This document shows, piece by piece, positions 996-63,532 of a stretch of DNA of 64,000 nucleotides; the stretch's first letter is position 1; every line of letters starts with the position of its first letter. Source of the stretch: Candidatus Parcubacteria bacterium (GTDB lineage Bacteria; Patescibacteriota; Minisyncoccia; JAHIHE01; JAGLIN01); NCBI GenBank assembly GCA_023132875.1, contig JAGLXN010000017.1, positions 22,142 to 86,141 on the forward strand, read 5' to 3'. A program made the position numbers and the translations under genes. Below the pieces are notes generated by a model, which worked only from the letters and a program-made list of their open reading frames with translations, was not told where the DNA came from and ran no database searches.

Positions 996-1099
996 CTTAT
1001 GTGCCGGAGGAGGGAATCGCCACAGGGATAAACCCGTGGCGCCCCGTCGAATGACAGGAGCGAACCCTTTATAATTTTATACGATTACAATTTTAATAG

Positions 1100-1181
1100 T
1101 GCCGATGGTGGGAGTCGAACCCACAAGCCTTGCGGCACACGATTTTGAGTCGTGCATGTTTGCCAATTTCATCACATCGGC
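1100..1181 (-). tRNA. tRNA-Leu (anticodon CAA), type II with long variable arm; CCA not encoded
   Basis: Manual fold: acceptor GCCGATG/CATCGGC, anticodon stem CACGA/TCGTG with loop CTCAAAA, variable hairpin GCC-GCAA-GGC, T-arm GTGGG-TTCGACT-CCCAC. Confidence 0.85.
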
Positions 1182-8128: not shown

Positions 8129-9031
8129 ATGGACAATCCCCAAACCAAAATCTCTGAAAAACAAATTCAAATCAATGGTTTGAATATAAATTATAAAACA
8201 ATCGGCGATGGGAAAATCCCGATTGTTTTGTTGCATGGGTGGGGAGTGTCAAGCGATAAATATACAGAATTAATAAAAATATTATACTCAATACTCAATA
8301 CTCAATATTCAATATTCATCCTTGATCTTCCCGGATTTGGAAAAAGCGACGAACCGAAAGAAAACTGGAATTTGGATGATTATGTTGAGTTTGTGGATGA
8401 ATTTATTAAAAAGACAAGTAGAAAAGGCGGATTTGAGTTAGTTAAAAATATATTAGAGAAAATGCAAGAAGGCTCCACAGGGCTATCGCCACAATGGAGC
8501 CAACGATCTTCTTGTCGACAAAAACTAGTCTTAATCGGTCATTCGTTTGGCGGGAGAATTGCGATAAAATATGCTGTGAAATGCCCTGAAAAAATTGATA
8601 AATTGATTTTAACCGGAGCGGCGGGAATTAAGCGTAAATTGACCGTAAAACAGAAAATATTCTTTATTTTGGCAAAAATAGGAAAGAAAATTTTTTCTTT
8701 GCCGTTAATTAATAATTTAGAAAAATACGCGCAAAAAATATTATACAAAGCTACTAAGGAAAAAGATTATTACCAAGCCAGCCCGAGGATGAAAGAAGTA
8801 ATGAAAAATGTTTTAGATGAAGACTTAACAGATTATTTAGATAAAATAAAAAATCACACTTTATTAGTTTGGGGAAAAGAAGACAAAACCACGCCTTTAG
8901 CTGATGGAAAAATTATGAATGAGAAAATTGAGAATTCCAAGTTAATTGTGGTTGATGACGCTAATCATAGTTTGCCATATCAGAAGGCTGAGAAGTTTGT
9001 GAAAATTGTGGAAAAGTTTATAAAAAAATGA
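8129..9031 (+). CDS. Alpha/beta-hydrolase fold protein
   Basis: HGWG oxyanion region and GHSFGG nucleophile elbow; carries two in-frame inserts (a heptamer array and a GC-rich hairpin). Confidence 0.75.
   Translation: MDNPQTKISEKQIQINGLNINYKTIGDGKIPIVLLHGWGVSSDKYTELIKILYSILNTQYSIFILDLPGFGKSDEPKENWNLDDYVEFVDEFIKKTSRKGGFELVKNILEKMQEGSTGLSPQWSQRSSCRQKLVLIGHSFGGRIAIKYAVKCPEKIDKLILTGAAGIKRKLTVKQKIFFILAKIGKKIFSLPLINNLEKYAQKILYKATKEKDYYQASPRMKEVMKNVLDEDLTDYLDKIKNHTLLVWGKEDKTTPLADGKIMNEKIENSKLIVVDDANHSLPYQKAEKFVKIVEKFIKK
8286..8320 (+). repeat. In-frame heptanucleotide tandem array (ACTCAAT x3, ATTCAAT x2) inside the hydrolase ORF
   Basis: Seen directly; encodes ILYSILNTQYSIF. Confidence 0.7.
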
Positions 9032-9050: not shown

Positions 9051-9278
9051 TCATATAAACGTAAATGGATTTTCTATTGACTCTGGGTCAATTTTAGCCA
9101 ATATTAGCAAATACAGCGCCAAAGCTGCTGCTATTATTACTATTATTGGTATAACTACAAATGTACCAAGTTGATATGACAATAACATATTTGGCAATAT
9201 TAACGATGTTAGTATTCCTCCAATTAAAAACAGGAACGCCAAAATAGTAAAAATCGTATTTTTTATAAGTTCATCCAA
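9051..9278 (-). CDS. Hypothetical small membrane protein (2 TM)
   Basis: Hydrophobic 75-aa ORF. Confidence 0.35.
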   Translation of the reverse strand: MDELIKNTIFTILAFLFLIGGILTSLILPNMLLSYQLGTFVVIPIIVIIAAALALYLLILAKIDPESIENPFTFI

Positions 9279-9317
9279 TTTAAAACCTCCGAATTTAGTA
9301 TATATTAAATAAAATTA

Positions 9318-10898
9318 ATGTCAATTATTTTAATTACAATATTAATATTATTTCTCATCAAAATTGTCCGTGATAGCTTGTTTTGTGTTTGGCTTTGGCA
9401 GGTGAAAGAATATCGGATAGATCGGATGAAATCTTATTTGAGAGACGAGAAAAGTATTATTTATAAAAATATTAATTATTTATTTGTTTTGATTTTATTT
9501 TTTATTTGCATTTTGGTTCCACAGCCATTCGGGACTATGGAACTAATGATTCTTATTTATTTAACGCTTTTATTTTTTACTTTTACTTTTTACCAAATTT
9601 TAATAGAAATAAAAGATAGAATTTTAAAAAGACCAAAGTTGACTTTTAAGATAATTCTAATATTTTTCATAGAAGCCACCTTTTATTTTTCGTTCTTTGT
9701 ATTTTACTGGATTCCCGCATTCGCGGGAATGACAAGACCTGCGGTCTTGATCCTACTATTACTATTTATTTATCTCATCACTCCTTTTTTAATTGCTACA
9801 ATTATTTTGTTAACAAATCCATTTTTTAATTTCCAAAAAAGAATAATAAAAAAAAAAGCCACCGAAAAAATGAAGGGATTGAAAAAAGTAAAAGTTATCG
9901 GTATTACGGGCAGTTACGGAAAGACAAGCACGAAAGAATTTCTATATGCGATATTGAACCAGAAATATAAAGTTGTAAAAACAGAAGGGAATAATAATAC
10001 GAATATCGGCGTGGCTTATACTGTTTTAAATAAAGTGAGTGATAAATATGATTATTTTATCTGTGAAATGGGCGCTTATAAAATTGGCGAAATCGCAGAA
10101 ATTTGTAAAATAGTAAAACCGGAAGTTGGAATTTTAACAGGAATTAACGAACAGCATATTGATTTATTTGGGTCTATTGAGAATACGGTTAAAGCGAAGT
10201 TTGAATTGATTGAGGCGTTGCCAGAGAACGGATTGGCGGTAATAAATGAAAAATTAAAAAATCAAAATGGAAAATTACAATTTAAAATTAAAAATGTTAA
10301 ATATTTTTCTTTGAACAATGTAAATGATATTAAAGTTTGTCAGGATTATGTAGGGTTTAATTATAAGAACTATAAATTTAAAACTAATCTTCTTGGCAAG
10401 CATTATATAGAAAATATTTTATCTGCTATAATGATAGCAGAATGTTTGGGAATAAGTTTGGATGAAATTGCAAAAGCAGTAGAGAAAATAAAACCGACTG
10501 AATTTATGATAAGAAAATTATACGGTCCAAATAATTCTATTTTTATTGATGACAGTTATAGCGCAAATCCTGATGGCGTAATCGCGGCGCTTGATTATTT
10601 AGATGAAGCGTATCAAGATTATAAAAAAATAATTGTTTTTCCAGGGATAATTGAATTGGGAAACAAGTCAAAAGAAGTGCATCAAAAATTATTTAGTAAA
10701 ATAGATAAAATTTGCGACTTTGCTTATATACTGAATACAGAATACAGAATACAGAATACTAATAACAAATTTGTTTTTGAGAAGGATTTTAATAAAGTGG
10801 CGAGAATGCTGAAAAATAATCTCAACGAAAAATCTGTTGTTCTTTTTGAAAGCCGGGGAGCGGGAGTGGCGATGGGAAAAGTAAAAATAGAAAAATAA
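9318..10898 (+). CDS. MurF-like Mur ligase with an N-terminal polytopic membrane domain of about 190 aa
   Basis: Mur ligase P-loop GITGSYGKTSTKE and C-terminal DDSYSANP signature; the N-terminus is strongly hydrophobic. Confidence 0.7.
   Translation: MSIILITILILFLIKIVRDSLFCVWLWQVKEYRIDRMKSYLRDEKSIIYKNINYLFVLILFFICILVPQPFGTMELMILIYLTLLFFTFTFYQILIEIKDRILKRPKLTFKIILIFFIEATFYFSFFVFYWIPAFAGMTRPAVLILLLLFIYLITPFLIATIILLTNPFFNFQKRIIKKKATEKMKGLKKVKVIGITGSYGKTSTKEFLYAILNQKYKVVKTEGNNNTNIGVAYTVLNKVSDKYDYFICEMGAYKIGEIAEICKIVKPEVGILTGINEQHIDLFGSIENTVKAKFELIEALPENGLAVINEKLKNQNGKLQFKIKNVKYFSLNNVNDIKVCQDYVGFNYKNYKFKTNLLGKHYIENILSAIMIAECLGISLDEIAKAVEKIKPTEFMIRKLYGPNNSIFIDDSYSANPDGVIAALDYLDEAYQDYKKIIVFPGIIELGNKSKEVHQKLFSKIDKICDFAYILNTEYRIQNTNNKFVFEKDFNKVARMLKNNLNEKSVVLFESRGAGVAMGKVKIEK
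9709..9753. repeat. Repeat family B hairpin (GGATTCCCGC-ATTC-GCGGGAATGAC plus AGACC-TGCG-GGTCT) inserted in-frame in the murF-like ORF
   Basis: Palindrome read directly; translates to IPAFAGMTRPAV. Confidence 0.6.
10733..10760 (+). repeat. In-frame heptamer tandem array (GAATACA x3, GAATACT) in the murF-like ORF
   Basis: Seen directly. Confidence 0.7.
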
Positions 10899-13519: not shown

Positions 13520-13523
13520 TGGT

Positions 13524-13566
13524 GAATCAGGAATCAGGAATCAGGAATTATGAATTAGGAATTAAG
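13524..13566. repeat. GAAT-core heptamer array (GAATCAG x3, GAATTAT, GAATTAG, GAATTAA) right after the FemAB-like stop
   Basis: Seen directly. Confidence 0.7.
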
Positions 13567-13629: not shown

Positions 13630-13656
13630 GATTCTGAAACAAGTTTAGAATGACAA
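13630..13656. repeat. Repeat family B hairpin GATTCTGAAACAAGTTTAGAATGACAA
   Basis: Same hairpin as at 61007 and inverted at 60857. Confidence 0.6.
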
Positions 13657-13720
13657 AATTTGTAATTTTTAAAATAAATTCCATAGTTTCATATAACATA
13701 CAATCCATAATTCATGATTC

Positions 13721-14752
13721 ATGATCCGTAATTTCAAGTTTAGAAGAAAAAGAATAAAACCATGGCAGCGAAAACCAAGGATTTTTGCGAGTCACAAACC
13801 TATTTTTTTTAAAAAAAATAAAAGCGGTTCTGCTAAAAATCTTAAAAGGGGATTATTGATAGCGTTTGTTTTTTTTGTCGCGTATTTTATTTTTTTCTCG
13901 GAGTTTTTTATAATTAAAAAAATAGATATAAATGGAAACAAAACCATTTCCAATAAAAACATAGAAAAAATCATAAAAAATGAAAACTCAAATCCGATTT
14001 TAGCAATTTTTCCTGGAAATAATTTTTTTCTTACTAACGAGGAAAAAATAGAAAAAAAACTGCTTAGCGAGTTTTCAGAGATCAAAACAATAACAATTAA
14101 AAAAAAGCTTCCAGATACTATAAAAGCGGAGATTGTAGAAAAAAATCCTCTTATTCTTTGGTGCAGAACTGAAAGCTGTTATTATCTTGACACTGAAGGA
14201 ATAGCTTTTATGGCTGAAAGCAGTGATACAGAAGCATATAAAGACAAAAAATTTATAAAAATTATAGAAGAGGTAAAAATTAAAGAAGAGATAGAAGATG
14301 AATTAGAAAGAGAGAAAGAAGAAAAGGAAACTAAGCCAGTGTTTTTAGATAATATTCAAAATACAATTGATTCTGAAATTTCTGATAATCCAGAGCATGA
14401 TGAAAGAGAAAATGATAAAAAAAATGAAGACAAAAATATCATACTAGAACCAATAAAAATAAATGATAAGATCGCGAATGAAGATTTTATAAATTTTGTT
14501 TTTAAATTAGATAATAGCATTAAAAGCGACACTGATATAAAAATTAAATATTATAAGACAAAGGGAGTAAAAACAAGAGAGATAATCGCGTATTCAGATA
14601 AAAACATAAGAATTTATTTTAATACTGCAGATGACGCGAAATTACAAACAACATATCTAAAAGATTTTATGTCTAAAGGAATTGGTAAAAATGAAATAAA
14701 TACATTAGAATATATATACCTTAAATCTGGAAATAAGATTTTTTATAAATAA
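13721..14752 (+). CDS. ftsQ: FtsQ/DivIB-like cell division protein (TM + POTRA) with an acidic insertion
   Basis: TM segment followed by a POTRA-like pattern I.INGN...LPDTIKAEIVEKNPLILWC. Confidence 0.55.
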   Translation: MIRNFKFRRKRIKPWQRKPRIFASHKPIFFKKNKSGSAKNLKRGLLIAFVFFVAYFIFFSEFFIIKKIDINGNKTISNKNIEKIIKNENSNPILAIFPGNNFFLTNEEKIEKKLLSEFSEIKTITIKKKLPDTIKAEIVEKNPLILWCRTESCYYLDTEGIAFMAESSDTEAYKDKKFIKIIEEVKIKEEIEDELEREKEEKETKPVFLDNIQNTIDSEISDNPEHDERENDKKNEDKNIILEPIKINDKIANEDFINFVFKLDNSIKSDTDIKIKYYKTKGVKTREIIAYSDKNIRIYFNTADDAKLQTTYLKDFMSKGIGKNEINTLEYIYLKSGNKIFYK

Positions 14753-16360
14753 TTGAAATTTAAAATAATTAAAATGAAAAAAATACGAACAAGATTTGCG
14801 CCAAGCCCGACGGGATATCTTCATGTTGGAAGTTTAAGAACTGCGTTATATAATTATCTGTTTGCCAAACATAATAACGGCGATTTTATCCTGCGTATTG
14901 AAGATACGGATAAAGCAAGGTTTGTGGAGGGTTCTATTGAAAATTTAGTGAAAATATTGGACCTAATCGAGCTGAAATATAATGAAGGTGTATTTGTAGA
15001 TAATGACGGAAAAATCTCTCAAAAAGGCAATTTTGGGCCATATATACAATCTGAAAGGCTAGAAATATATAAAAAATATGTTGACAAGCTAATAAAAAAT
15101 GATTATGCATATTTTTGCTTCTGTAGTCAAGAACGGCTGGAAGAAATGAGAAAAGAACAGCAAGCGCAAAAAATGGCTCCTAAGTATGACGGAAAGTGCA
15201 GGGGACTGGATAAAAAAGAAATTCAAAGGCTTCTCGATAAAAAAACTCCCTATGTTGTTCGTCTAAAAACTCCGCAGGAAGGATTTACCGAATTTGATGA
15301 TCTAGTTTATGGAAAAATAAAAATTGAAAACAAGGTAATTGATGATCAAGTTTTGATGAAGTCCGATGGATTTCCAACATATCATTTGGCAAATGTCATT
15401 GATGATCATTTAATGGAAATTTCACATGTCATTCGGGGAGAGGAATGGCTTCCATCAACTCCAAAGCATGTTATTTTATATAAAGCGTTTGGGTGGGATA
15501 TGCCAGAGTTTGCTCATCTACCACTTCTTCTTAATCCCGATAAAAGCAAATTGAGTAAACGTCAGGGCGATGTCGCAGTAGAAAATTATCTAAAAAAAGG
15601 ATATTTACCAGAAGCATTGTTAAACTTTATATTATTACTTGGTTGGAATCCTAAAACTGAAGAAGAAATTTTTTCATTTGATGAAATGATAAAAAGATTT
15701 GATTTGTCTGGAGTTAATAAAACGGGAGCTATTTTCAGTGTAGAAAAACTGGATTGGATAAATGGAACGTATATTCGTTGTATGCCGCTTGAAGAACTTA
15801 CCGAACTTTGTGTTCCATATTTGATTGAGGCAGGATTGATAGAAAGAATTATGAATTATGAATTAAGAATAAAGAATAAAATTCAAAATTCAAAATTCTC
15901 CTCCCGAGGCGGATCAGCCTTGGGCTGGAAGATTCAAAATTCTGATAAGGAAGTAGATTTTGATTATTTAAAAAAAGTTATTGCGCTTGAACAGGAACGG
16001 ATGAAGAAATTGAGTGAGATAGGGGAGCTGGTAAAATTTATCTTTGTTGATAAATTAGATTATGATAAAGATTTACTGGTATGGAAAAAAATGAGCTTTG
16101 AAGAGGTAAAAAATAATTTAGAATTAGCTTATGATGAATTAGAAAAAATAGACGAGAAAGATTTTGTGAAAAATAATTTGGAAGAAGTTTTGAGAAATTT
16201 AATGGGACGAGAGGGGATTAAGACGGGAGAATTGTTATGGCCCTTGCGAGTAGCTTTGACTGGCCTGAAAGGATCACCAGGACCGTTTGAAGTGGCAAGC
16301 GTTTTGGGAAAGGGAAAAGCTTTAAAGAGGATCAGAAAGGTAATTGAATTATTGAGATAA
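14753..16360 (+). CDS. gltX: Glutamyl-tRNA synthetase
   Basis: HIGH (PSPTGYLHVGS) and KMSKS-like (KLSKR) motifs; contains an in-frame repeat insertion. Confidence 0.9.
   Translation: MKFKIIKMKKIRTRFAPSPTGYLHVGSLRTALYNYLFAKHNNGDFILRIEDTDKARFVEGSIENLVKILDLIELKYNEGVFVDNDGKISQKGNFGPYIQSERLEIYKKYVDKLIKNDYAYFCFCSQERLEEMRKEQQAQKMAPKYDGKCRGLDKKEIQRLLDKKTPYVVRLKTPQEGFTEFDDLVYGKIKIENKVIDDQVLMKSDGFPTYHLANVIDDHLMEISHVIRGEEWLPSTPKHVILYKAFGWDMPEFAHLPLLLNPDKSKLSKRQGDVAVENYLKKGYLPEALLNFILLLGWNPKTEEEIFSFDEMIKRFDLSGVNKTGAIFSVEKLDWINGTYIRCMPLEELTELCVPYLIEAGLIERIMNYELRIKNKIQNSKFSSRGGSALGWKIQNSDKEVDFDYLKKVIALEQERMKKLSEIGELVKFIFVDKLDYDKDLLVWKKMSFEEVKNNLELAYDELEKIDEKDFVKNNLEEVLRNLMGREGIKTGELLWPLRVALTGLKGSPGPFEVASVLGKGKALKRIRKVIELLR
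15846..15948. mobile_element. Repeat family A element (GAAT heptamers plus GC-rich core CCTCCCGAGGCGGATCAGCCTTGGGCTGG) inserted in-frame in gltX
   Basis: Core matches the copies at 36568, 50467 and 63030; encodes MNYELRIKNKIQNSKFSSRGGSALGWKIQNS. Confidence 0.65.
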
Positions 16361-16929: not shown

Positions 16930-18270
16930 ATGGTTATAACTAAACACAAAAAGCTAACTATTACATTATTACTATTGGCGTCTTTTGTTGTGTCGCCATT
17001 TTTTGGCATAGAAATAAAGCAAAGCAAAGCAGATCTAGTAGAAGAAATTGAAGACCAAATAAACGAAAAAAGTGAAACAGTAAAAAATCTTGAAAATCAA
17101 GCAGAAGAATATAAAGATCTTATAAGAGGGCTTCGGATAGAAGAACAGAGTCTAGAAAATGAAATTGAGCTTCTTGACGCGCAAGTCGCTCAGCTTAATT
17201 TAGAGATTCAAACAACGCAGACTCAGATAGAACAAACAAATCTTGAAATAAATAATTTACTGCTAAGAATCCAGATAAAGGAAGAAGAAATTGAAAAACA
17301 GAAAGATATTCTGAAAAATTTACTGCGAGAGATAAATGCTTATGATAATGAAACAACGCTTGAAATTCTTCTTAAAAGCAAAGAGTTCTCAGAATTTCTA
17401 AATCAAGCTGAATATATGAACACAGTTGGAGGAAAAATTAAAGATGCTCTTGACGAGCTTAATTCAATAAAGCAAGAATTGGAAGAGAAAAAAGAAGAAA
17501 TGAAAGAAAAGAAAAATCAGCTTGAAGAATTAAGCAAAAAATTGTTGGATCAAAAAGAAATAGTAAACGCGCAAAAAAACGCGAAAGAAGCCTTGCTAAA
17601 AGAAACAAGAGGGAAAGAATATAAATACCAGGATTTACTATTCAATGTCAGGAATCAAAGAAAAACGATTTTAGGCGACATAAACAGGCTTAAAAGAGAA
17701 ATGCAGGTTGAGATCGCAAAAATCGCAGCTATGGCAGAAAGGCCTTCGGAAAATCTTGCGTCCACAAGCTGGTATTTTTCCCAAAATAATTCAAGATGGA
17801 AAGATATGACAATCGGACTTTCAAATTCTTCCGTTGATGATTATGGATGCGCTATTTCGTCCGTAGCAATGGTATTTAAATATTATGGGATAGACATAGA
17901 TCCTGGACGGCTTTCAAAACAGCCTATATTCTATTATGATTTAATTGTTTGGCCCAAACAGTGGAGATTTTTGGATTTAATCAAAAATTCATATCATAAA
18001 TCAGGCGGACTTACTAAGGCTGATTGGAATTTAATAGATCGTGAAATCGCCAGCGGACATCCAGTAATTGTATTTATTAAAGCGCTAGGAAGAGGCGCTG
18101 GACATTATGTCGTAATTCACAGCAAAGACTCAAAAGGATATATTGTCCATGATCCCGTCAGATGGAACGGCCAGAGCGGAGCTAATATATATCTTTCAAC
18201 AACAAGGAAATATATAGGTTCTATATATAAAACAAACACTGTTGTTGACCAAATGATCATTTATCATTGA
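16930..18270 (+). CDS. Secreted coiled-coil protein with a C-terminal papain-like cysteine peptidase domain (C39-like); PcsB/EnvC-like architecture
   Basis: Signal/TM segment, about 250 aa of coiled coil, then DYGCAISSVAMV...GHYVVIHS (Cys/His dyad). Confidence 0.6.
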   Translation: MVITKHKKLTITLLLLASFVVSPFFGIEIKQSKADLVEEIEDQINEKSETVKNLENQAEEYKDLIRGLRIEEQSLENEIELLDAQVAQLNLEIQTTQTQIEQTNLEINNLLLRIQIKEEEIEKQKDILKNLLREINAYDNETTLEILLKSKEFSEFLNQAEYMNTVGGKIKDALDELNSIKQELEEKKEEMKEKKNQLEELSKKLLDQKEIVNAQKNAKEALLKETRGKEYKYQDLLFNVRNQRKTILGDINRLKREMQVEIAKIAAMAERPSENLASTSWYFSQNNSRWKDMTIGLSNSSVDDYGCAISSVAMVFKYYGIDIDPGRLSKQPIFYYDLIVWPKQWRFLDLIKNSYHKSGGLTKADWNLIDREIASGHPVIVFIKALGRGAGHYVVIHSKDSKGYIVHDPVRWNGQSGANIYLSTTRKYIGSIYKTNTVVDQMIIYH

Positions 18271-18681
18271 TTTAGCTTCTTAGATTATAGCTTCTTAGCT
18301 TTTTAGGAATTATTTCAGGAATTTTTCAGGATGACAAAATAGAAATGATTTTTTATATTTTACGACATAAAGTTATAATATTTGAAATTAATAAAAGAAC
18401 TTTATGATAAAGATTTGGGCTTAATAATAAAAAGCAATTAATATAATAAAAAAAGATAAACCTAACAACTATACAGAAAAATTTATCCAGAAAAGGGATT
18501 TATCGTTTTTATTAGAAACTAAAGCTAAATTTAAGAACTAATGTCGTAAAAGCTACCTTGTGCGACATTACCACTAACTTTTTTTATCCGCTTCCCTAGC
18601 GGATTTTATGTATATATAACTGAATTGTTAATGTATGTCTTTATTATAATACTTTTAAAATTTGTGTCAAGAATACATTAT

Positions 18682-19035
18682 TTAAATAAACTTATTTATA
18701 AGTGCTCCAAATACTATAAGCGCTAAAGCGAAAATAAGCGAAAATAGTTTATTTATATTATGTTTAAAAACATCACGATCTGTTTCTTTTATTAAGTTTT
18801 TTAGCCCACCTTTTATTTTTAAATCTTTTTCAATTAACAATAAAAAAGTATCTGAAATCATCTCCCTCATTTTTGTTGCTTTTTCTGCTGTTTCACAAAG
18901 CGTGTCTGCTATTTTTTCGTTATTTCCAAACTTATCTTCTAATTGCTCAATCCTTTTCTTAACATTAATAATATCCTCACCATGTTTATCAAGGGATGTT
19001 GTTAGTTTATCTGGATCAAAATCATTCTTGGCCAT
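18682..19035 (-). CDS. Hypothetical tail-anchored protein
   Basis: 117 aa with a C-terminal TM segment. Confidence 0.4.
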   Translation of the reverse strand: MAKNDFDPDKLTTSLDKHGEDIINVKKRIEQLEDKFGNNEKIADTLCETAEKATKMREMISDTFLLLIEKDLKIKGGLKNLIKETDRDVFKHNINKLFSLIFALALIVFGALINKFI

Positions 19036-24814: not shown

Positions 24815-24843
24815 GTAGGGACGGGTTTCAAACCCGTCCCTAC
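24815..24843 (-). terminator. Perfect 13-bp stem hairpin GTAGGGACGGGTT-tca-AACCCGTCCCTAC downstream of thiI
   Basis: Seen directly; U-run on the minus transcript. Confidence 0.6.
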
Positions 24844-24905: not shown

Positions 24906-26180
24906 TTAGATCACTTCTGGTTTTATTTCAGCCATAATTCTTTCTGCAATTTCGTCAATCTTCAAATTTTCCTCTTGTTTAATAATATCTCTAAGCTTAG
25001 CTTTTGTTTCCGGATGTTTGGCAATTAAGAAACTGCAACAGTCCTGATATGGAAGAATTGATATTTCATAAGTTTTTATTTTTACAGCCAAATCAATAAT
25101 TTCCTGTTTATTCATCCCGATCAGCGGCGGGAATATTGGCAAGTTAGCGGAATTATAAATAACGCCAATGTTATCAAGCGTCTGCGAAGCGACCTGGCTT
25201 AAGCTATCACCAGTCACAAATCCTTTCGCTTTTTCTTTTTTGGCGATCATTTCCGCCAGTTCAAACATTATTCTCCTATAAATAATCATTCTGTTTTTTG
25301 CTGGAATTTTAGCAATAATTTCCTTTTGAAATTCTTCAAACGGAATTATATATAACTTTGATCTTCCCTGAAAACGGCTTAGTTTTTTAACTAAGCTTTT
25401 TATTTTATCATCGCCAGTATTATTGATAATCTTATTTTTAAAATGGACAAAAACAATTTTCGCTCCTCTCTTCATCATCATATAGCTTGCCACTGGACTG
25501 TCTATCCCACCAGAAAGCAAACTTACTAATTTCCCTGCCGTACCAACTGGCAGTCCGCCAATTCCCTTTATTTTTTCAAAATATATATAGCAATACTTAT
25601 GTCCTATATCTACGACTATTTCTATATCGGGATTATGAACATTAACTTTTAATTCTGTATTTTCCAAAACGGACTCCCCTACTCTAGCATTTATTTCCGG
25701 CGATTTAAATTCAAATTTTTTATCAGATCTTCTTGCTTCTATTTTAAAAGTTTTTATTTTGCCATTCTGATGGTTCGACAGGCTCACCATGACATTATCG
25801 TCATCCTGAGCTTGTCGAAGGATTGTCTTCTCATTCTCTTTTATATATAATCTCAAAAACTCAACTGTCTTTTTATTTATTTTTTCTAAATCTTTTTTTT
25901 CCGAAACCGCAAAATAGAAATTTGAAATCCCTGGAATATTTTCTAAGACCTCTTTTGTTTTTTCTAAATCAGTATTCTTATTTATTTCTATAATAATTTT
26001 CCCTCCGTCTTTATAAATTTTATCATATTTTATATTCTCTAAAAATTCTTTTATATTGCTAATCAACACACGCTCAAAAAAGGGACGATTTCCTCCCTTT
26101 AATGTAATCTCATCGTAATGGATTATTATGTGATTATATATATGAGTATACATAAGAATAATTATAATTATAGTTTCCAA
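24906..26180 (-). CDS. thiI: tRNA 4-thiouridine synthase ThiI (THUMP + PP-loop)
   Basis: PP-loop LSGGIDSPVASY; carries an in-frame family B repeat. Confidence 0.8.
   Translation of the reverse strand: METIIIIILMYTHIYNHIIIHYDEITLKGGNRPFFERVLISNIKEFLENIKYDKIYKDGGKIIIEINKNTDLEKTKEVLENIPGISNFYFAVSEKKDLEKINKKTVEFLRLYIKENEKTILRQAQDDDNVMVSLSNHQNGKIKTFKIEARRSDKKFEFKSPEINARVGESVLENTELKVNVHNPDIEIVVDIGHKYCYIYFEKIKGIGGLPVGTAGKLVSLLSGGIDSPVASYMMMKRGAKIVFVHFKNKIINNTGDDKIKSLVKKLSRFQGRSKLYIIPFEEFQKEIIAKIPAKNRMIIYRRIMFELAEMIAKKEKAKGFVTGDSLSQVASQTLDNIGVIYNSANLPIFPPLIGMNKQEIIDLAVKIKTYEISILPYQDCCSFLIAKHPETKAKLRDIIKQEENLKIDEIAERIMAEIKPEVI
25799..25827. repeat. Repeat family B-like hairpin CGTCATCCTGAGCTTGTCGAAGGATTGTC in-frame inside thiI
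   Basis: GC-rich relative to flanks; encodes RQAQDDD on the minus strand. Confidence 0.5.
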
Positions 26181-27487: not shown

Positions 27488-27518
27488 TGTCATTCTCGCG
27501 GATGCGGGAATCCAGGAG
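27488..27518. repeat. Repeat family B hairpin TGTCATTCTCGCGGATGCGGGAATCCAGGAG
   Basis: Imperfect palindrome ATTCTCGC/GCGGGAAT. Confidence 0.55.
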
Positions 27519-31875: not shown

Positions 31876-32012
31876 GTCATTGCGAGAAATAAAATTATCC
31901 GAAGGATAATTGAATGACGAAGCAATCCCGTAACTATGCTCCTCGCGTGTAGCCACGGGATTGCTTCGTCGCCTTCTTACTCGCTATGCTCGTTCGGGCT
32001 TCTCGCAATGAC
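31876..32012. mobile_element. MITE-like 137-bp element with 13-bp terminal inverted repeats GTCATTGCGAGAA/TTCTCGCAATGAC and an internal 15-bp inverted repeat
   Basis: Both inverted-repeat pairs seen directly; sits between map and adk. Confidence 0.65.
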
Positions 32013-32706: not shown

Positions 32707-32735
32707 TTGTCATTCTGAAATAAATTCAATGACAG
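32707..32735. repeat. Family B-type hairpin TTGTCATTCTGAAATAAATTCAATGACAG
   Basis: Inverted repeat TGTCATT/AATGACA. Confidence 0.5.
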
Positions 32736-36545: not shown

Positions 36546-36615
36546 TTTTGTCATTGAAAATTGATTGCCGGTCCAAGGCTGGTCCGCCTCGGGCGGAAAA
36601 ATTAGAAATTGAAAA
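36546..36615. mobile_element. Repeat family A copy (TTTTGTCATTGAAAATTGATTG-CCGGTCCAAGGCTGGTCCGCCTCGGGCGG-AAAAATTAGAAATT) in the rplR-rplF spacer
   Basis: Near-identical over about 70 nt to the copy at 50443..50512. Confidence 0.65.
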
Positions 36616-50442: not shown

Positions 50443-50512
50443 TAGTCATTGGAAATTGATTGTCAACCCAAGGCTGATCCGCCTCGGGCGGAAAAATTAA
50501 AAATTTTATAAT
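50443..50512. mobile_element. Repeat family A copy (TTTAGTCATTGGAAATTGATTG-TCAACCCAAGGCTGATCCGCCTCGGGCGG-AAAAATTAAAAATT) downstream of the ATPase gene
   Basis: About 70-nt match to 36546..36615. Confidence 0.65.
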
Positions 50513-60856: not shown

Positions 60857-61032
60857 TGTCATTCTGAACTCGTTTCAGAATCTTTCTGTTGCTACATTGA
60901 ACAATCCTATAAAGCATCAAACGCTTTACTAAATTGAAAATACAATAATTGTAATATGATTCTTGGCGTTGTTGCAAATAGGATAAATTATACCTAACAG
61001 AAAATAGATTCTGAAACAAGTTCAGAATGACA
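60857..61032. mobile_element. 176-bp MITE-like element flanked by inverted family-B hairpins (TGTCATTCTGAACTCGTTTCAGAATC ... GATTCTGAAACAAGTTCAGAATGACA)
   Basis: Both terminal hairpins seen directly in opposite orientation. Confidence 0.6.
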
Positions 61033-62692: not shown

Positions 62693-63532
62693 TTATTTTT
62701 TCAAAACCATCCACCCAAATTTTATCGTCGCGTTATAAATTCGTTTTATTCTTCGCGGATTCAAGATCAATCGCCACAGCCATTCCAATCCCAATTTTTG
62801 GAAAATCAATGGCGCGCGTTTGACTTCACCAGATATAAAATCAAACGATCCGCCGACTCCAATTGCCAGCTTTACGCTTGGCAATTTTTTTAAGTTCTCA
62901 TAAATCCATTCTTCCTGTTTAGGAACGCCAAACGCAACGAGTATTATATCTGGTTTTGTTCTATTTATCCGCTGAATTAATTCTTCATTTAACTTATGAA
63001 ACTTATTATTATAAGAATTTGGAATTTTTCCTCCCAAGGCGGACCAGCCTTTGGCTGGGAATTTGGAATTTTGAGATTTATTTGGTATTTGGTATTTGGT
63101 ATTTGGTATTTCAAACCACATTCCCTCCTCCGCGCCCACGATATTTAAACGATCATACTTTTTAGATAAAACTTTTGCGGCTTCTCCCGCTATCCCTTCT
63201 CCCGCTCCTAATAAATATATCTTTTTACCTTTTATAAGTTCAGATTCACAGATTTTATAAATTAAATTAATACCCGTAATTTTTTCGGGCAATGTTTTAT
63301 GATTTAAAAATTTGTTCGCAAATAAAATTCCTGTTCCATCCGGAATAATAATATCGGCTTCATTTATAATTTTTTTAAAGTGATTATTTTTTCGAGCTTC
63401 AACAACCATTTCTGGGTTTAGTGTTACAATATAATGTTGTTGATCCGATAATAAAAAACTCTTGATTTTTTCAAGAACTTCTTTTGTTGTAATCTTATTT
63501 ACTTTTACATCTAATATTTTTTCATAATTCAT
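62693..63532 (-). CDS. WecB/TagA/CpsF-family glycosyltransferase carrying an in-frame family A repeat insertion
   Basis: N-terminal WecB/TagA-like region IIIPDGTGI; insertion encodes EIPNTKYQIPNKSQNSKFPAKGWSALGGKIPNS. Confidence 0.65.
   Translation of the reverse strand: MNYEKILDVKVNKITTKEVLEKIKSFLLSDQQHYIVTLNPEMVVEARKNNHFKKIINEADIIIPDGTGILFANKFLNHKTLPEKITGINLIYKICESELIKGKKIYLLGAGEGIAGEAAKVLSKKYDRLNIVGAEEGMWFEIPNTKYQIPNKSQNSKFPAKGWSALGGKIPNSYNNKFHKLNEELIQRINRTKPDIILVAFGVPKQEEWIYENLKKLPSVKLAIGVGGSFDFISGEVKRAPLIFQKLGLEWLWRLILNPRRIKRIYNATIKFGWMVLKK
63015..63112. mobile_element. Repeat family A element (core CCTCCCAAGGCGGACCAGCCTTTGGCTGGG plus ATTTGGT x4 heptamers) in-frame inside the wecB-like gene
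   Basis: Core matches 15899, 36568 and 50467. Confidence 0.65.

What the first reader, a model, noticed from the sequence alone, without database searches (positions are those of the whole stretch)
9709..9753. Family B hairpin repeat (GGATTCCCGC-ATTC-GCGGGAATGAC) in-frame inside the membrane domain of the MurF-like ligase
A GC-rich palindrome within an AT-rich ORF, translated as WIPAFAGMTRPAV, is followed by a second small hairpin AGACC-TGCG-GGTCT. Related GTCATTC...GAATGAC hairpins recur at 13630, 25799 (in thiI), 27488, 32707, 60857 and 61007.
Basis: seen in the sequence. Interest (0 to 1): 0.5.

Follow-up and report, generated by a model that had tools for sequence, protein, structure and literature searches.

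The report
Neisseria-type NTS hairpin inside murF-like gene
The GC-rich palindrome is a copy of a widespread bacterial hairpin repeat (the Neisseria dRS3/NTS, an "Ssn-related motif") that sits in frame in a tolerant outer loop of a cell-wall ligase in a tiny Parcubacteria genome and has stayed there across related species; it is real and instructive, but it belongs to a known kind of element.

Summary
GGATTCCCGC-ATTC-GCGGGAATGAC is at 9709-9733, in frame (W131-T139) in a 526-aa MurF-like ORF. A second hairpin follows at 9733-9749.

Read on the minus strand, the sequence is tGTCATTCCCGCGAATGCGGGAATCCAG. That matches the Neisseria Transformation Sequence (NTS, which contains dRS3) at 26 of 28 positions. 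It is the only window hit to the published Ssn-related-motif (SRM) pattern; shuffles gave none.

The same 25-mer core occurs in at least 120 unrelated viral-contig stretches (GC 32-72%). It sometimes flanks a small GIY-YIG nuclease gene. Parcubacteria relatives carry such genes, flanked by hairpins with a GTCAT foot. None was found in the window.

The hairpin is not a recent insertion. Thirteen orthologues keep it at the same codons, using rare CCC/GCG codons, variable loops, one compensatory pair, and longer or nested variants. Other lineages have decayed or hairpin-free alleles.

It encodes the short K/R-free loop between predicted transmembrane segments 4 and 5. One orthologue carries an SRM-core-SRM composite in frame elsewhere in the gene.

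Best reading: a solo Ssn-type hairpin element fixed in a permissive loop, analogous to Rickettsia palindromic elements. Verdict: new member of a known kind, in a new phylum and an unusual context. Function at this site is unproven.

The parts
9707..9734 (-). NTS-type Ssn-related motif (SRM) hairpin. The minus strand reads TGTCATTCCCGCGAATGCGGGAATCCAG. Stem 9711-9718 pairs with 9723-9730; loop 9719-9722; 5' GTC foot and 3' C on the minus strand. The plus strand is translated as W131-IPAFAGM-T139.
   Evidence: Searches give the sequence, palindrome and fold; the only window hit to the published SRM pattern, 0 hits in 50 shuffles. NTS consensus CGTCATTCCCGCGMAVGCGGGAATCYRG, matched at 26 of 28 positions; the same core occurs in at least 120 viral-contig stretches.
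9733..9749 (.). Second small hairpin CAAGACC-TGC-GGTCTTG, directly 5' of the SRM on the minus strand. It encodes T139-RPAV-L. It is partly kept in a subset of orthologues: the GGTCTT arm is kept, while the AAGACC arm decays by transitions.
   Evidence: It is unique in the window and weak on its own.
9318..10898 (+). Host gene: a 526-aa MurF-like Mur ligase. The usual N-terminal domain is replaced by five hydrophobic segments. The hairpin encodes the K/R-free turn between segments 4 and 5.
   Evidence: (P0001, an exact match annotated as MurF, Candidatus Parcubacteria, on an 831,018-bp contig).
27489..27513 (+). Second NTS-type copy, GTCATTCTCGCGGATGCGGGAATCC followed by AGG. It is intergenic, between the cytidine-deaminase-like and class-V aminotransferase genes (both on the minus strand). 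Relative to local transcription it has the same orientation as the murF copy.
60858..61031 (.). A 174-bp intergenic unit bounded by two inverted GTCAT-foot hairpins of the TCTGAAC subfamily (60858-60882 on the plus strand and 61007-61031 on the minus strand; 25 of 26 nt complementary). This is the same geometry as NTS-ssnA-NTS but with no gene inside, so it is MITE-like.
   Evidence: The subfamily occurs exactly in 15 viral-contig stretches.
13630..13654 (-). Solitary, slightly decayed copy of the TCTGAAC subfamily: GATTCTGAAACAAGTTTAGAATGAC on the plus strand. Intergenic.
   Evidence: The fold is no better than shuffles.
32709..32733 (.). GTCATTCTGAAATAAATTCAATGAC, a hairpin in which the GTCAT foot itself pairs. 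Intergenic.
25772..25823 (-). Long hairpin with the GTCAT foot: GGTTCGACAGGCTCACCATGAC-ATTATC-GTCATCCTGAGCTTGTCGAAGGAT. It lies in frame in ThiI, between the ferredoxin-like and THUMP domains.
   Evidence: -14.2 kcal/mol, z = -4.6.

Best explanation
The element is a solitary NTS-type 'Ssn-related motif' (SRM). This is the hairpin repeat first described in Neisseria as dRS3/NTS. In Neisseria it is bound, and cut just upstream, as single-stranded DNA by the small GIY-YIG nuclease SsnA. In many genomes it flanks ssn genes in an insertion-sequence-like NTS-ssn-NTS arrangement.

In an ancestor of this Parcubacteria clade a copy became part of the murF-like gene. It landed in a position that tolerates foreign sequence: the short outer turn between transmembrane segments 4 and 5. 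It landed in a frame without stop codons, so it is translated as WIPAFAGMT. It has since been inherited vertically. In different lineages it has been kept, remodelled (loop changes, a longer stem, a nested hairpin, neighbouring palindromes) or eroded by AT-biased mutation.

Shown here: the sequence identity with NTS/SRM, the hairpin fold, the in-frame position, the conservation at DNA level in orthologues, the presence of SRM-flanked GIY-YIG genes in relatives, and the in-frame insertion of an SRM-bounded composite elsewhere in an orthologue.

Inferred, not shown: that the element spread by an Ssn-dependent, ssDNA-hairpin-directed mechanism; that it is still a nuclease target in this organism; and that it is essentially a tolerated passenger at this site rather than something serving murF.
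For: Identity with NTS/SRM:
- The minus strand of 9707-9734 matches the NTS consensus at 26 of 28 positions and fits the dRS3 pattern ATTCCC-N8-GGGAAT exactly.
- It is the only hit to the published SRM pattern in the window; 50 shuffles gave 0 hits.
- It keeps the GTC 5' of the palindrome and the C 3' of it. The paper found these critical for cleavage and binding.

Distribution and partner genes:
- The exact core GTCATTCCCGC-N4-GCGGGAATCC, usually followed by AG as here, occurs in at least 120 viral-contig stretches with GC 32-72%.
- In L167 two inverted copies directly flank a GIY-YIG ORF. In L116 and L083 a copy abuts one.
- Parcubacteria relatives encode homologous GIY-YIG proteins: L006 (1.4 kb upstream of its murF-like gene), L019 and L020. 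Each is flanked by GTCAT-foot hairpins. The L006 protein aligns with the NTS-flanked L167 protein at 32% identity, E = 1e-23.

Conservation at DNA level:
- Thirteen orthologues keep the stem at the same codons, with CCC (11.5% of Pro codons) and GCG (28% of Ala codons).
- The 4-nt loop varies freely.
- One pair changed C-G to T-A in three sequences.
- L010 has a longer complementary stem, and L206 has a hairpin nested in the loop.

The peptide is a by-product of the DNA:
- The same hairpin occurs intergenically at 27489.
- In L210 it occurs in another frame (LDSCLRGND), as part of an SRM-core-SRM composite in the ligase domain that other orthologues lack.

Other support:
- Two near-identical 112-nt NTS-bounded units in L010, and the 174-bp unit at 60858-61031, point to mobility.
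- The hairpin lies in a K/R-free short loop between hydrophobic segments.
Against: - No GIY-YIG gene was found in the 64-kb window, nor in 10 kb beyond its right end.
- None of the 120 listed homologues of the L006 nuclease comes from an 831,018-bp contig. A partner nuclease in this genome is therefore unproven.
- The GIY-YIG genes seen in relatives are flanked by a different stem family (GTCATYTCGAG...), not the NTS type.
- Only two NTS-type copies occur in 64 kb.
- There is no clean empty site. Hairpin-free alleles differ by only about 3 codons, so an insertion event is inferred rather than seen.
- Covariation support is weak: 50 of 500 shuffles reach the observed score. Part of the DNA conservation may come from selection on the peptide and from common codons (ATT, GGA, ACA).
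- Substitutions in the stem mostly keep G-T pairing on the plus (mRNA-sense) strand: 10 wobbles against 2 C-A cells. A pure minus-strand ssDNA target would not predict that, although mutation bias could produce it.
Confidence: 0.7

Rival explanations
1. The hairpin is kept because it works in the mRNA, or in the plus DNA strand, of murF. For example it could act as a translational pause that helps membrane insertion of segments 4 and 5, as a processing site, or as an attenuator.
For: - The perfect palindrome folds equally well on the sense strand.
- In 13 orthologues, 98.1% of stem cells pair on the plus strand. Ten G-T wobbles are tolerated there, against two C-A cells.
- The other short outer loop of the same domain (PQPFGTMEL, 9518-9548) is also hairpin-encoded.
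Against: - The same sequence is a dispersed repeat found intergenically and in unrelated organisms.
- Several lineages have lost it or let it decay while keeping the gene.
- No terminator-like site is present.
- The wobble asymmetry involves few independent events and could reflect C-to-T bias on this strand.
Confidence: 0.1
2. It is a hairpin repeat of another mobilisation system. Candidates are a REP-like element moved by a RAYT or IS200/IS605 TnpA, or an attachment or target site for an IS110/Piv-type recombinase, as dRS3 is for Neisseria filamentous prophages. In this reading Ssn plays no part in this genome.
For: - No ssn gene was found in the available sequence of this genome.
- A GTAG-headed REP-like hairpin also exists at 24815-24843.
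- The site has accumulated different palindromes in different lineages, in the way REP clusters do.
Against: - The head is GTCAT, not the GTAG/GTGG of REPs.
- No transposase or recombinase gene was seen near any copy in the window or in the relatives' loci. Only a subset of the window's ORFs was screened, plus the gene tables of the fetched loci.
- The match to the Ssn-associated consensus includes the oriented flanks.
- GIY-YIG genes flanked by GTCAT hairpins are present in relatives.
Confidence: 0.12
3. The palindrome is incidental. The peptide WIPAFAGMT is conserved for protein reasons, and the DNA symmetry is chance or a by-product.
For: The peptide is conserved in many orthologues. Decayed DNA versions still encode similar residues: WIYAFAITEE in P0025/P0032 and ISAFAEMI in P0058.
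Against: - 0 of 100 shuffles contain the 25-mer, even allowing 3 mismatches.
- An identical sequence occurs intergenically at 27489 and in at least 120 unrelated contigs.
- Rare codons are retained.
- The same hairpin is read in a different frame at another position in an orthologue.
- Hairpin-free alleles such as YINNDLSLV function in related lineages.
Confidence: 0.03

Closest known systems
Neisseria Transformation Sequence (NTS) / dRS3 and the wider Ssn-related motifs (SRM), partner of the GIY-YIG ssDNA nuclease SsnA (Nat Commun 2025;16:2388, PMC11893778)
   Same: The sequence is nearly identical: 26 of 28 positions of the NTS consensus, and an exact dRS3 pattern. It forms the same 8-bp stem, has the same oriented flanks (5' GTC, 3' C-AG) and is a dispersed repeat. 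Relatives carry small single-domain GIY-YIG genes flanked by GTCAT-foot hairpins. Gene-less units bounded by two inverted hairpins repeat the NTS-ssnA-NTS geometry.
   Different: The host is a Patescibacteria (CPR) genome of 31% GC, a phylum the paper does not mention. The copy is inside a coding sequence, in frame, and conserved across orthologues, whereas only 2% of NTS copies in N. meningitidis lie in genes. Copy number is low (2 in 64 kb). No cognate ssn gene has been found in this genome, and nuclease activity on this copy is untested.
Rickettsia palindromic elements (RPE; Ogata et al. 2000, as summarised in PMC10969869)
   Same: Both are palindromic repeats inserted in frame into unrelated housekeeping genes of a small, AT-rich genome. 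Both are translated as extra peptide segments in permissive parts of the protein and are retained in orthologues (for RPEs; here).
   Different: RPEs are about 100-150 bp and specific to Rickettsia. This element is a 25-28-nt single hairpin with a different sequence. The SRM paper lists Rickettsia among SRM-rich genera, but no link between RPEs and SRMs was tested here.
REP/BIME elements and their RAYT (IS200/IS605-like) transposases
   Same: Both are short GC-rich extragenic-type hairpins with an oriented head sequence, thought to be handled as ssDNA hairpins. Both tend to cluster with other palindromes; the murF site has accumulated several kinds.
   Different: The head is GTCAT, not GTAG/GTGG. 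No RAYT or TnpA gene was seen. REPs are typically extragenic.
[quoted passage not shown]
   Same: The 174-bp unit at 60858-61031, the 112-nt units in L010 and the 83-nt in-frame composite in L210 have terminal inverted repeats around a short non-coding core and occur in multiple copies.
   Different: The murF hairpin itself is a single hairpin without a partner end. No target-site duplication was identified for any unit, and the termini are themselves hairpins rather than plain inverted repeats.

Membership tests
NTS / Ssn-related motif (SRM) | Match to the published consensus: NTS CGTCATTCCCGCGMAVGCGGGAATCYRG, or SRM HGTCWYN(0-2)YYVSBRHN(0-5)WNVSBRGN(0-2)RNCYNB | tested here: met
   The minus strand of 9707-9734 matches NTS at 26 of 28 positions (the first C is T; the loop V is T). 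The SRM pattern hits only here in the window, with 0 hits in 50 shuffles.
NTS / Ssn-related motif (SRM) | Semi-palindrome predicted to fold as an ssDNA hairpin | tested here: met
   An 8-bp perfect stem with a 4-nt loop. Folding energy is -14.8 to -14.9 kcal/mol together with the neighbouring hairpin, z about -6.
NTS / Ssn-related motif (SRM) | Oriented flanks needed by SsnA: three nucleotides 5' of the palindrome (cleavage) and a C immediately 3' of it (binding) | tested here: met
   GTC lies 5' and C lies 3' on the minus strand. Both are invariant in the 13 orthologous copies, although those bases are also fixed by the TGG and ATG-ACA codons.
NTS / Ssn-related motif (SRM) | Repeated many times in the genome, in excess over chance | tested here: inconclusive
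   Two NTS-type copies plus about six other GTCAT-foot hairpins occur in 64 kb. A relaxed foot-hairpin census gave 7 hits against 4.7 +/- 2.0 in shuffles, because chance AT-rich hits dilute it. The rest of the 831-kb genome could not be read.
NTS / Ssn-related motif (SRM) | Genome encodes an Ssn (single-domain GIY-YIG, cd10448) gene, typically flanked by the motif | tested here: inconclusive
   None was found in the window or in 10 kb beyond it, and none could be traced to this contig. Relatives L006, L019 and L020 do have them, flanked by GTCAT-foot hairpins of another stem type. Assignment to cd10448 itself was not tested; only Pfam GIY-YIG and 32% identity to an NTS-flanked homologue were obtained.
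NTS / Ssn-related motif (SRM) | Bound and cleaved as ssDNA, on one strand only, by the cognate Ssn | not testable with these tools
   This needs purified protein and oligonucleotides.
dRS3 (Neisseria) | ATTCCC-N8-GGGAAT | tested here: met
   9711-9730 reads ATTCCC GCATTCGC GGGAAT. Membership in the Neisseria repeat population as such does not apply, because the host is a Parcubacteria.
Rickettsia palindromic elements | A palindromic unit of about 100-150 bp belonging to one of the RPE sequence families | tested here: not met
   The element is 25-28 nt (41 nt with the second hairpin), and its sequence is that of NTS. It is an analogue in behaviour only.
REP / RAYT system | Conserved GTAG/GTGG head 5' of the palindrome and a RAYT gene in the genome (definition recalled from the literature, not checked in a paper here) | tested here: not met
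   The head is GTCAT. No RAYT-like gene was noticed in the window, but the window's ORFs were not all screened.
Intrinsic transcription terminator | GC-rich stem-loop followed by a T/U run | tested here: not met
   No terminator-like sites occur in 9200-10200 on either strand, and neither hairpin is followed by a T run.

The most novel reading that the evidence does not exclude
In Patescibacteria, Ssn-type hairpins and several other palindrome families may systematically colonise permissive loops and linkers of essential proteins in frame, and may be actively maintained there at the DNA level. Examples in this window are the MurF-like ligase, ThiI, GluRS, an alpha/beta hydrolase and WecG. In this reading the hairpins serve as intragenic targets of ssDNA nucleases. 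Those nucleases would gate natural transformation, or set recombination breakpoints, in organisms that depend on DNA uptake. The mosaic N- and C-terminal halves of murF-like genes and the hotspot behaviour of this site would then be consequences.
Probability: 0.15. Interest if true: 0.7.

Novelty: new member of a known kind. Interest (0 to 1): 0.45.

Why it matters
It ties a puzzling GC-rich palindrome in a CPR genome to a hairpin family whose partner enzyme was characterised only in 2025. It extends that family to Patescibacteria.

It also shows a context that is rare in Neisseria: an in-frame intragenic copy that has persisted across species in an essential cell-wall gene.

There are practical consequences. 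Peptides such as IPAFAGMT, DSCLRGND, LHSPKGTMEP and EAKLPIGSLAS in CPR proteins are translated palindromes, not functional motifs. They inflate apparent protein divergence, create alignment 'insertions' and may seed assembly or recombination mosaics.

If the hairpins are still nuclease targets, they would mark where incoming single-stranded DNA is cut. These organisms are thought to depend on DNA uptake.

Tried and rejected
- Rfam at gathering thresholds found only two tRNAs, and no RNA family at the site.
- A regex search and a phmmer search for GIY-YIG ORFs in the window found none.
- Walking the genome: 10 kb beyond the right end holds no GIY-YIG gene. The look-up for the left end failed because no gene with that exact product is on record.
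- A homologue search with the L006 nuclease, looking for a hit on the 831,018-bp contig, found none. Only 162 candidates were scored, so this is weak negative evidence.
- For the L006 nuclease, NCBIfam gave no meaningful family. The PDB gave only distant UPF0213 GIY-YIG proteins.
- A covariation test on the 13 orthologous hairpins was not significant: 50 of 500 shuffles reached the observed score.
- A synonymous-codon test had too few informative columns. Gene-wide, 23% of columns with an invariant amino acid keep a single codon.
- The terminator or promoter reading was rejected: there is no terminator-like site, and promoter-like matches are at the chance level.
- I looked for a clean empty site and target-site duplication by comparing filled and hairpin-free alleles. 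None was recognisable; the alleles differ by about 3 codons and are diverged.
- A relaxed census of GTCAT-foot hairpins was not enriched over shuffles, because of AT-rich chance stems.
- Literature searches for palindromic in-frame elements in Patescibacteria found nothing relevant.
- Chance and a purely protein-level motif were rejected as explanations (see the rival explanations).
Full report
**What is there**

The window is AT-rich (31% GC). ORF 9318-10898 (+) encodes a 526-aa protein identical to a database entry annotated as MurF from a Candidatus Parcubacteria bacterium, carried on an 831,018-bp contig (P0001). It has Mur_ligase_M and Mur_ligase_C domains and matches the MurF model from residue 181 onward. 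The first ~180 residues are five hydrophobic segments.

At 9709-9733 the sequence is GGATTCCCGC-ATTC-GCGGGAATGAC. It has an 8-bp perfect stem and a 4-nt loop, and it is read in frame as W131-IPAFAGM-T139. A second hairpin, CAAGACC-TGC-GGTCTTG, follows at 9733-9749. As ssDNA the pair folds at about -14.9 kcal/mol on either strand (z about -6; 0 of 200 shuffles fold as well). Allowing 3 mismatches, the 25-mer occurs twice in the window and never in 100 shuffles. The other copy is intergenic, at 27489-27513, in the opposite orientation.

**What it is**

A full-text search for the sequence led to the 2025 paper on the Ssn nuclease family (PMC11893778). That paper defines two patterns:
- the Neisseria Transformation Sequence (NTS), CGTCATTCCCGCGMAVGCGGGAATCYRG, which contains the classical dRS3 repeat ATTCCC-N8-GGGAAT;
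- a degenerate 'Ssn-related motif' (SRM).

The minus strand of 9707-9734 reads TGTCATTCCCGCGAATGCGGGAATCCAG. That is 26 of 28 NTS positions and an exact dRS3. It includes the GTC 5' of the palindrome and the C 3' of it, which the paper found critical for cleavage and binding. The published SRM pattern hits the window only here and hits none of 50 shuffles.

The core GTCATTCCCGC-N4-GCGGGAATCC is far from private to this genome. These have GC contents of 32-72%, mostly the same 3' AG, and a few the same GAAT loop. In L167 two inverted copies directly bracket a 104-aa GIY-YIG ORF, and in L116 and L083 a copy abuts one. This is the NTS-ssnA-NTS arrangement the paper describes.

**Relatives**

A scan of species-representative genomes with the MurF-like alignment returned 22 Patescibacteria loci at 47-72% identity. 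Eight more orthologous loci (L202-L209) and L210 came from exact-protein look-ups.

Thirteen orthologues carry the hairpin at exactly the same codons. The pattern among them is as follows.
- The stem is kept with CCC and GCG codons. In this genome these make up 11.5% of Pro codons and 28% of Ala codons.
- The 4-nt loop varies freely (ATTC, CTCC, TTCC, CTTC, TTTC, CTTT, TCTC).
- Three sequences have the innermost pair changed from C-G to T-A.
- L010 has a different, longer complementary stem between the same feet: GGATTCCTCCCGAA-TTTAC-TTCGGGAGGAATGAC.
- L206 has an extra hairpin nested in the loop.

Other lineages show eroded versions (WIYAFAITEE, WISSFSITEE, ISAFAEMI) or hairpin-free alleles (YINNDLSLVFT). 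Additional palindromes have accumulated beside the site. One example is EAKLPIGSLAS, whose L016 and L207 DNA forms a near-perfect palindrome of about 30 nt (GAAGCTAAGCTTCCAATTGGAAGCTTAGCTTC in L016).

A distance tree of the ligase domains places hairpin-bearing sequences throughout the clade, with hairpin-free groups nested among them. More distant homologues (below 50% identity) have an unrelated, variable loop. So the hairpin is old within this clade. It is not a recent insertion. No clean empty site or target duplication can be seen, because the alleles differ by only about three codons.

Formal covariation support is weak (98.1% of cells paired, but 50 of 500 shuffles do as well), because there is little variation to work with.

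**The peptide is a by-product of the DNA**

Three observations show this. The same hairpin is intergenic at 27489. It occurs in unrelated organisms. In orthologue L210 it is read in a different frame (LDSCLRGND), as one end of an 83-nt composite: GTCATCTCCGCGAAGGCGGAGATCC, then a 33-nt core, then GGATTCCTGCCTCCGCGGGAATGAC. This composite is inserted in frame into the ligase domain, where the other orthologues have a gap.

That composite has the same geometry as the ssn-containing unit, namely two inverted GTCAT-foot hairpins around a core. So do two 112-nt units in ribosomal-protein operon spacers of L010 and the 174-bp unit at 60858-61031 in the window. These look like gene-less, MITE-like derivatives and argue that such units move.

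**Partner nuclease**

No GIY-YIG ORF is present in the window or in the 10 kb beyond its right end. None could be traced to this contig.

Relatives do have them. L006, whose murF-like gene carries the hairpin, encodes a 121-aa GIY-YIG protein 1.4 kb upstream of that gene. L019 and L020 encode homologues. Each is flanked on both sides by GTCAT-foot hairpins of a GTCATYTCGAG type. The L006 protein is 32% identical (E = 1e-23) to the NTS-flanked protein of L167. It has many close homologues annotated as GIY-YIG nucleases of Parcubacteria and Minisyncoccia.

Ssn-like systems therefore exist in this lineage. The cognate enzyme for the NTS-type stem in this genome remains unseen.

**Where it sits in the protein**

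Hydropathy gives five hydrophobic segments. The loops at 25-49, 97-107 and 171-200 are rich in K/R (6, 5 and 10 residues). By the positive-inside rule these should face the cytoplasm together with the ligase domain. The two short K/R-free turns, 70-75 (PQPFGTMEL) and 131-140 (WIPAFAGMTRP), would then face outward (the topology is an inference). Both turns are encoded by palindromes.

Elsewhere in the window, palindromic elements lie in frame in inter-domain gaps of ThiI, GluRS and an alpha/beta hydrolase, and in frame in WecG. The common theme is survival only in permissive, stop-free positions.

**Mechanism**

Best supported (about 0.7): a solo Ssn-type hairpin element became fixed in a permissive loop, has been inherited vertically, and is slowly remodelled or eroded. 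At this site it is most likely a tolerated passenger that may still be a substrate for an Ssn-type ssDNA nuclease.

Still inferred: spread by an ssDNA-hairpin-directed, GIY-YIG-dependent process (the paper itself only hypothesises this), and any present activity.

Rivals:
- An RNA- or plus-strand-level role in murF (about 0.1). The wobble asymmetry favours it, but loss in some lineages and the absence of a terminator count against it.
- A different mobilisation or target system, such as RAYT, IS200/IS605 or an IS110-type recombinase (about 0.12).
- An incidental palindrome under protein-level selection (about 0.03).

**Comparison and novelty**

By sequence and architecture the element is a member of the NTS/SRM family. 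Two defining features could not be settled: a cognate ssn gene in this genome, and cleavage.

By behaviour it resembles Rickettsia palindromic elements, which are in-frame palindromes in housekeeping genes. It fails their size and sequence criteria. It is not a REP (wrong head) and not a terminator.

The paper does not mention Patescibacteria, and it reports that only 2% of NTS copies in N. meningitidis lie in genes. My literature searches found no description of in-frame palindromic elements in CPR proteins.

I therefore rate it a new member of a known kind in a new phylum and an unusual context, with moderate interest.

Noticed in passing
window 9518-9548 (in the MurF-like ORF) and 8467-8501 (in the alpha/beta hydrolase ORF 8129-9031): This is a second palindrome family: GTTCCACAGCC-ATTCG-GGACTATGGAAC here, and GGCTCCACAGGG...CAATGGAGCC in the hydrolase. 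It is translated as PQPFGTMEL. In MurF-like homologues the same family appears at different positions as PQPYGTMEP or LHSPKGTMEP. It folds better on the minus strand because of G-T pairs.
   Followed up: partly
window 25772-25823, in ThiI (ORF 24906-26180, minus strand): A 52-nt hairpin with the GTCAT foot (13+5 bp, -14.2 kcal/mol, z = -4.6) lies in frame between the ThiI ferredoxin-like domain and the THUMP domain.
   Followed up: partly
window 15895-15932, 36562-36602, 50462-50496, 63026-63062: Four copies of another GC-rich family with the core CCAAGGCTGRTCCGCCTYGGG. Two are intergenic. One is in frame in the GluRS linker, between the catalytic and anticodon-binding domains. One is in frame in WecG (PAKGWSALGGK), flanked by short tandem AATWCC-like repeats translated as IPNTKYQIPNKSQNS.
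   Followed up: no
window 13520-13565 and 13700-13735: Short tandem repeats (GAATCAGG and relatives) lie at the end of the FemAB-like ORF, with an inverted counterpart 150 bp away. They bracket the intergenic region that holds the 13630 hairpin. Related repeats are translated as KNQESRIKN or NTEYRIQNT near the C-terminus of MurF-like homologues.
   Followed up: no
window 24815-24843: A perfect 13-bp hairpin, GTAGGGACGGGTT-TCA-AACCCGTCCCTAC, with a GTAG head (REP-like). It is intergenic; -15.4 kcal/mol, z = -7.7.
   Followed up: no
window ~17000-19000: GC skew changes sign and the cumulative skew peaks here. Genes to the left are on the plus strand and genes to the right are on the minus strand, so they converge. 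The window lies near the middle of the 831-kb contig. This is probably the replication terminus. Both NTS-type copies then have the GTCAT strand on the transcribed strand, which is the leading-strand template.
   Followed up: partly
window 9318-9860 (N-terminal 180 residues of the MurF-like protein): The usual MurF N-terminal domain is replaced by a five-segment membrane domain with a conserved RDxLxxxWLWQxKEYRxDR motif. This architecture is shared by more than 100 Patescibacteria homologues.
   Followed up: partly
homologues P0002/P0005, P0007/P0020, P0016/P0039 (alignment A1, tree): These pairs have nearly identical ligase domains but clearly different membrane-domain alleles. The switch point lies shortly after the hairpin site. 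The cause is either recombination within the gene or chimeric metagenome contigs.
   Followed up: partly
L210 3913-3999 (orthologue P0013): An 83-nt composite of two inverted GTCAT-foot hairpins around a 33-nt core is inserted in frame in the ligase domain (VFCHLREGGDPGLNGNNLLFSLDSCLRGND). It is present in P0008 and P0013 and absent from the other orthologues of alignment A1.
   Followed up: yes
L010 6418-6529 and 10638-10748: Two near-identical 112-nt units bounded by inverted NTS-like hairpins lie in spacers of the S10-L3-L4-L23-L2 ribosomal protein operon of a related Patescibacteria MAG.
   Followed up: partly
window 998-1067, next to tRNA-Leu (1099-1181, minus strand): A 70-nt GC-rich stretch with a strong local hairpin (GCCACGGG..CCTGTGGC) and a GTCATTC word lies just downstream of the tRNA gene. 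It matches no Rfam family and is not called as a tRNA.
   Followed up: no
window 31934-32010: A GC-rich intergenic stretch ending in CTTCTCGCAATGAC, another GTCAT-foot family (GTCATTGCGAG type). Its fold is no better than shuffles, so it is probably a decayed element.
   Followed up: no
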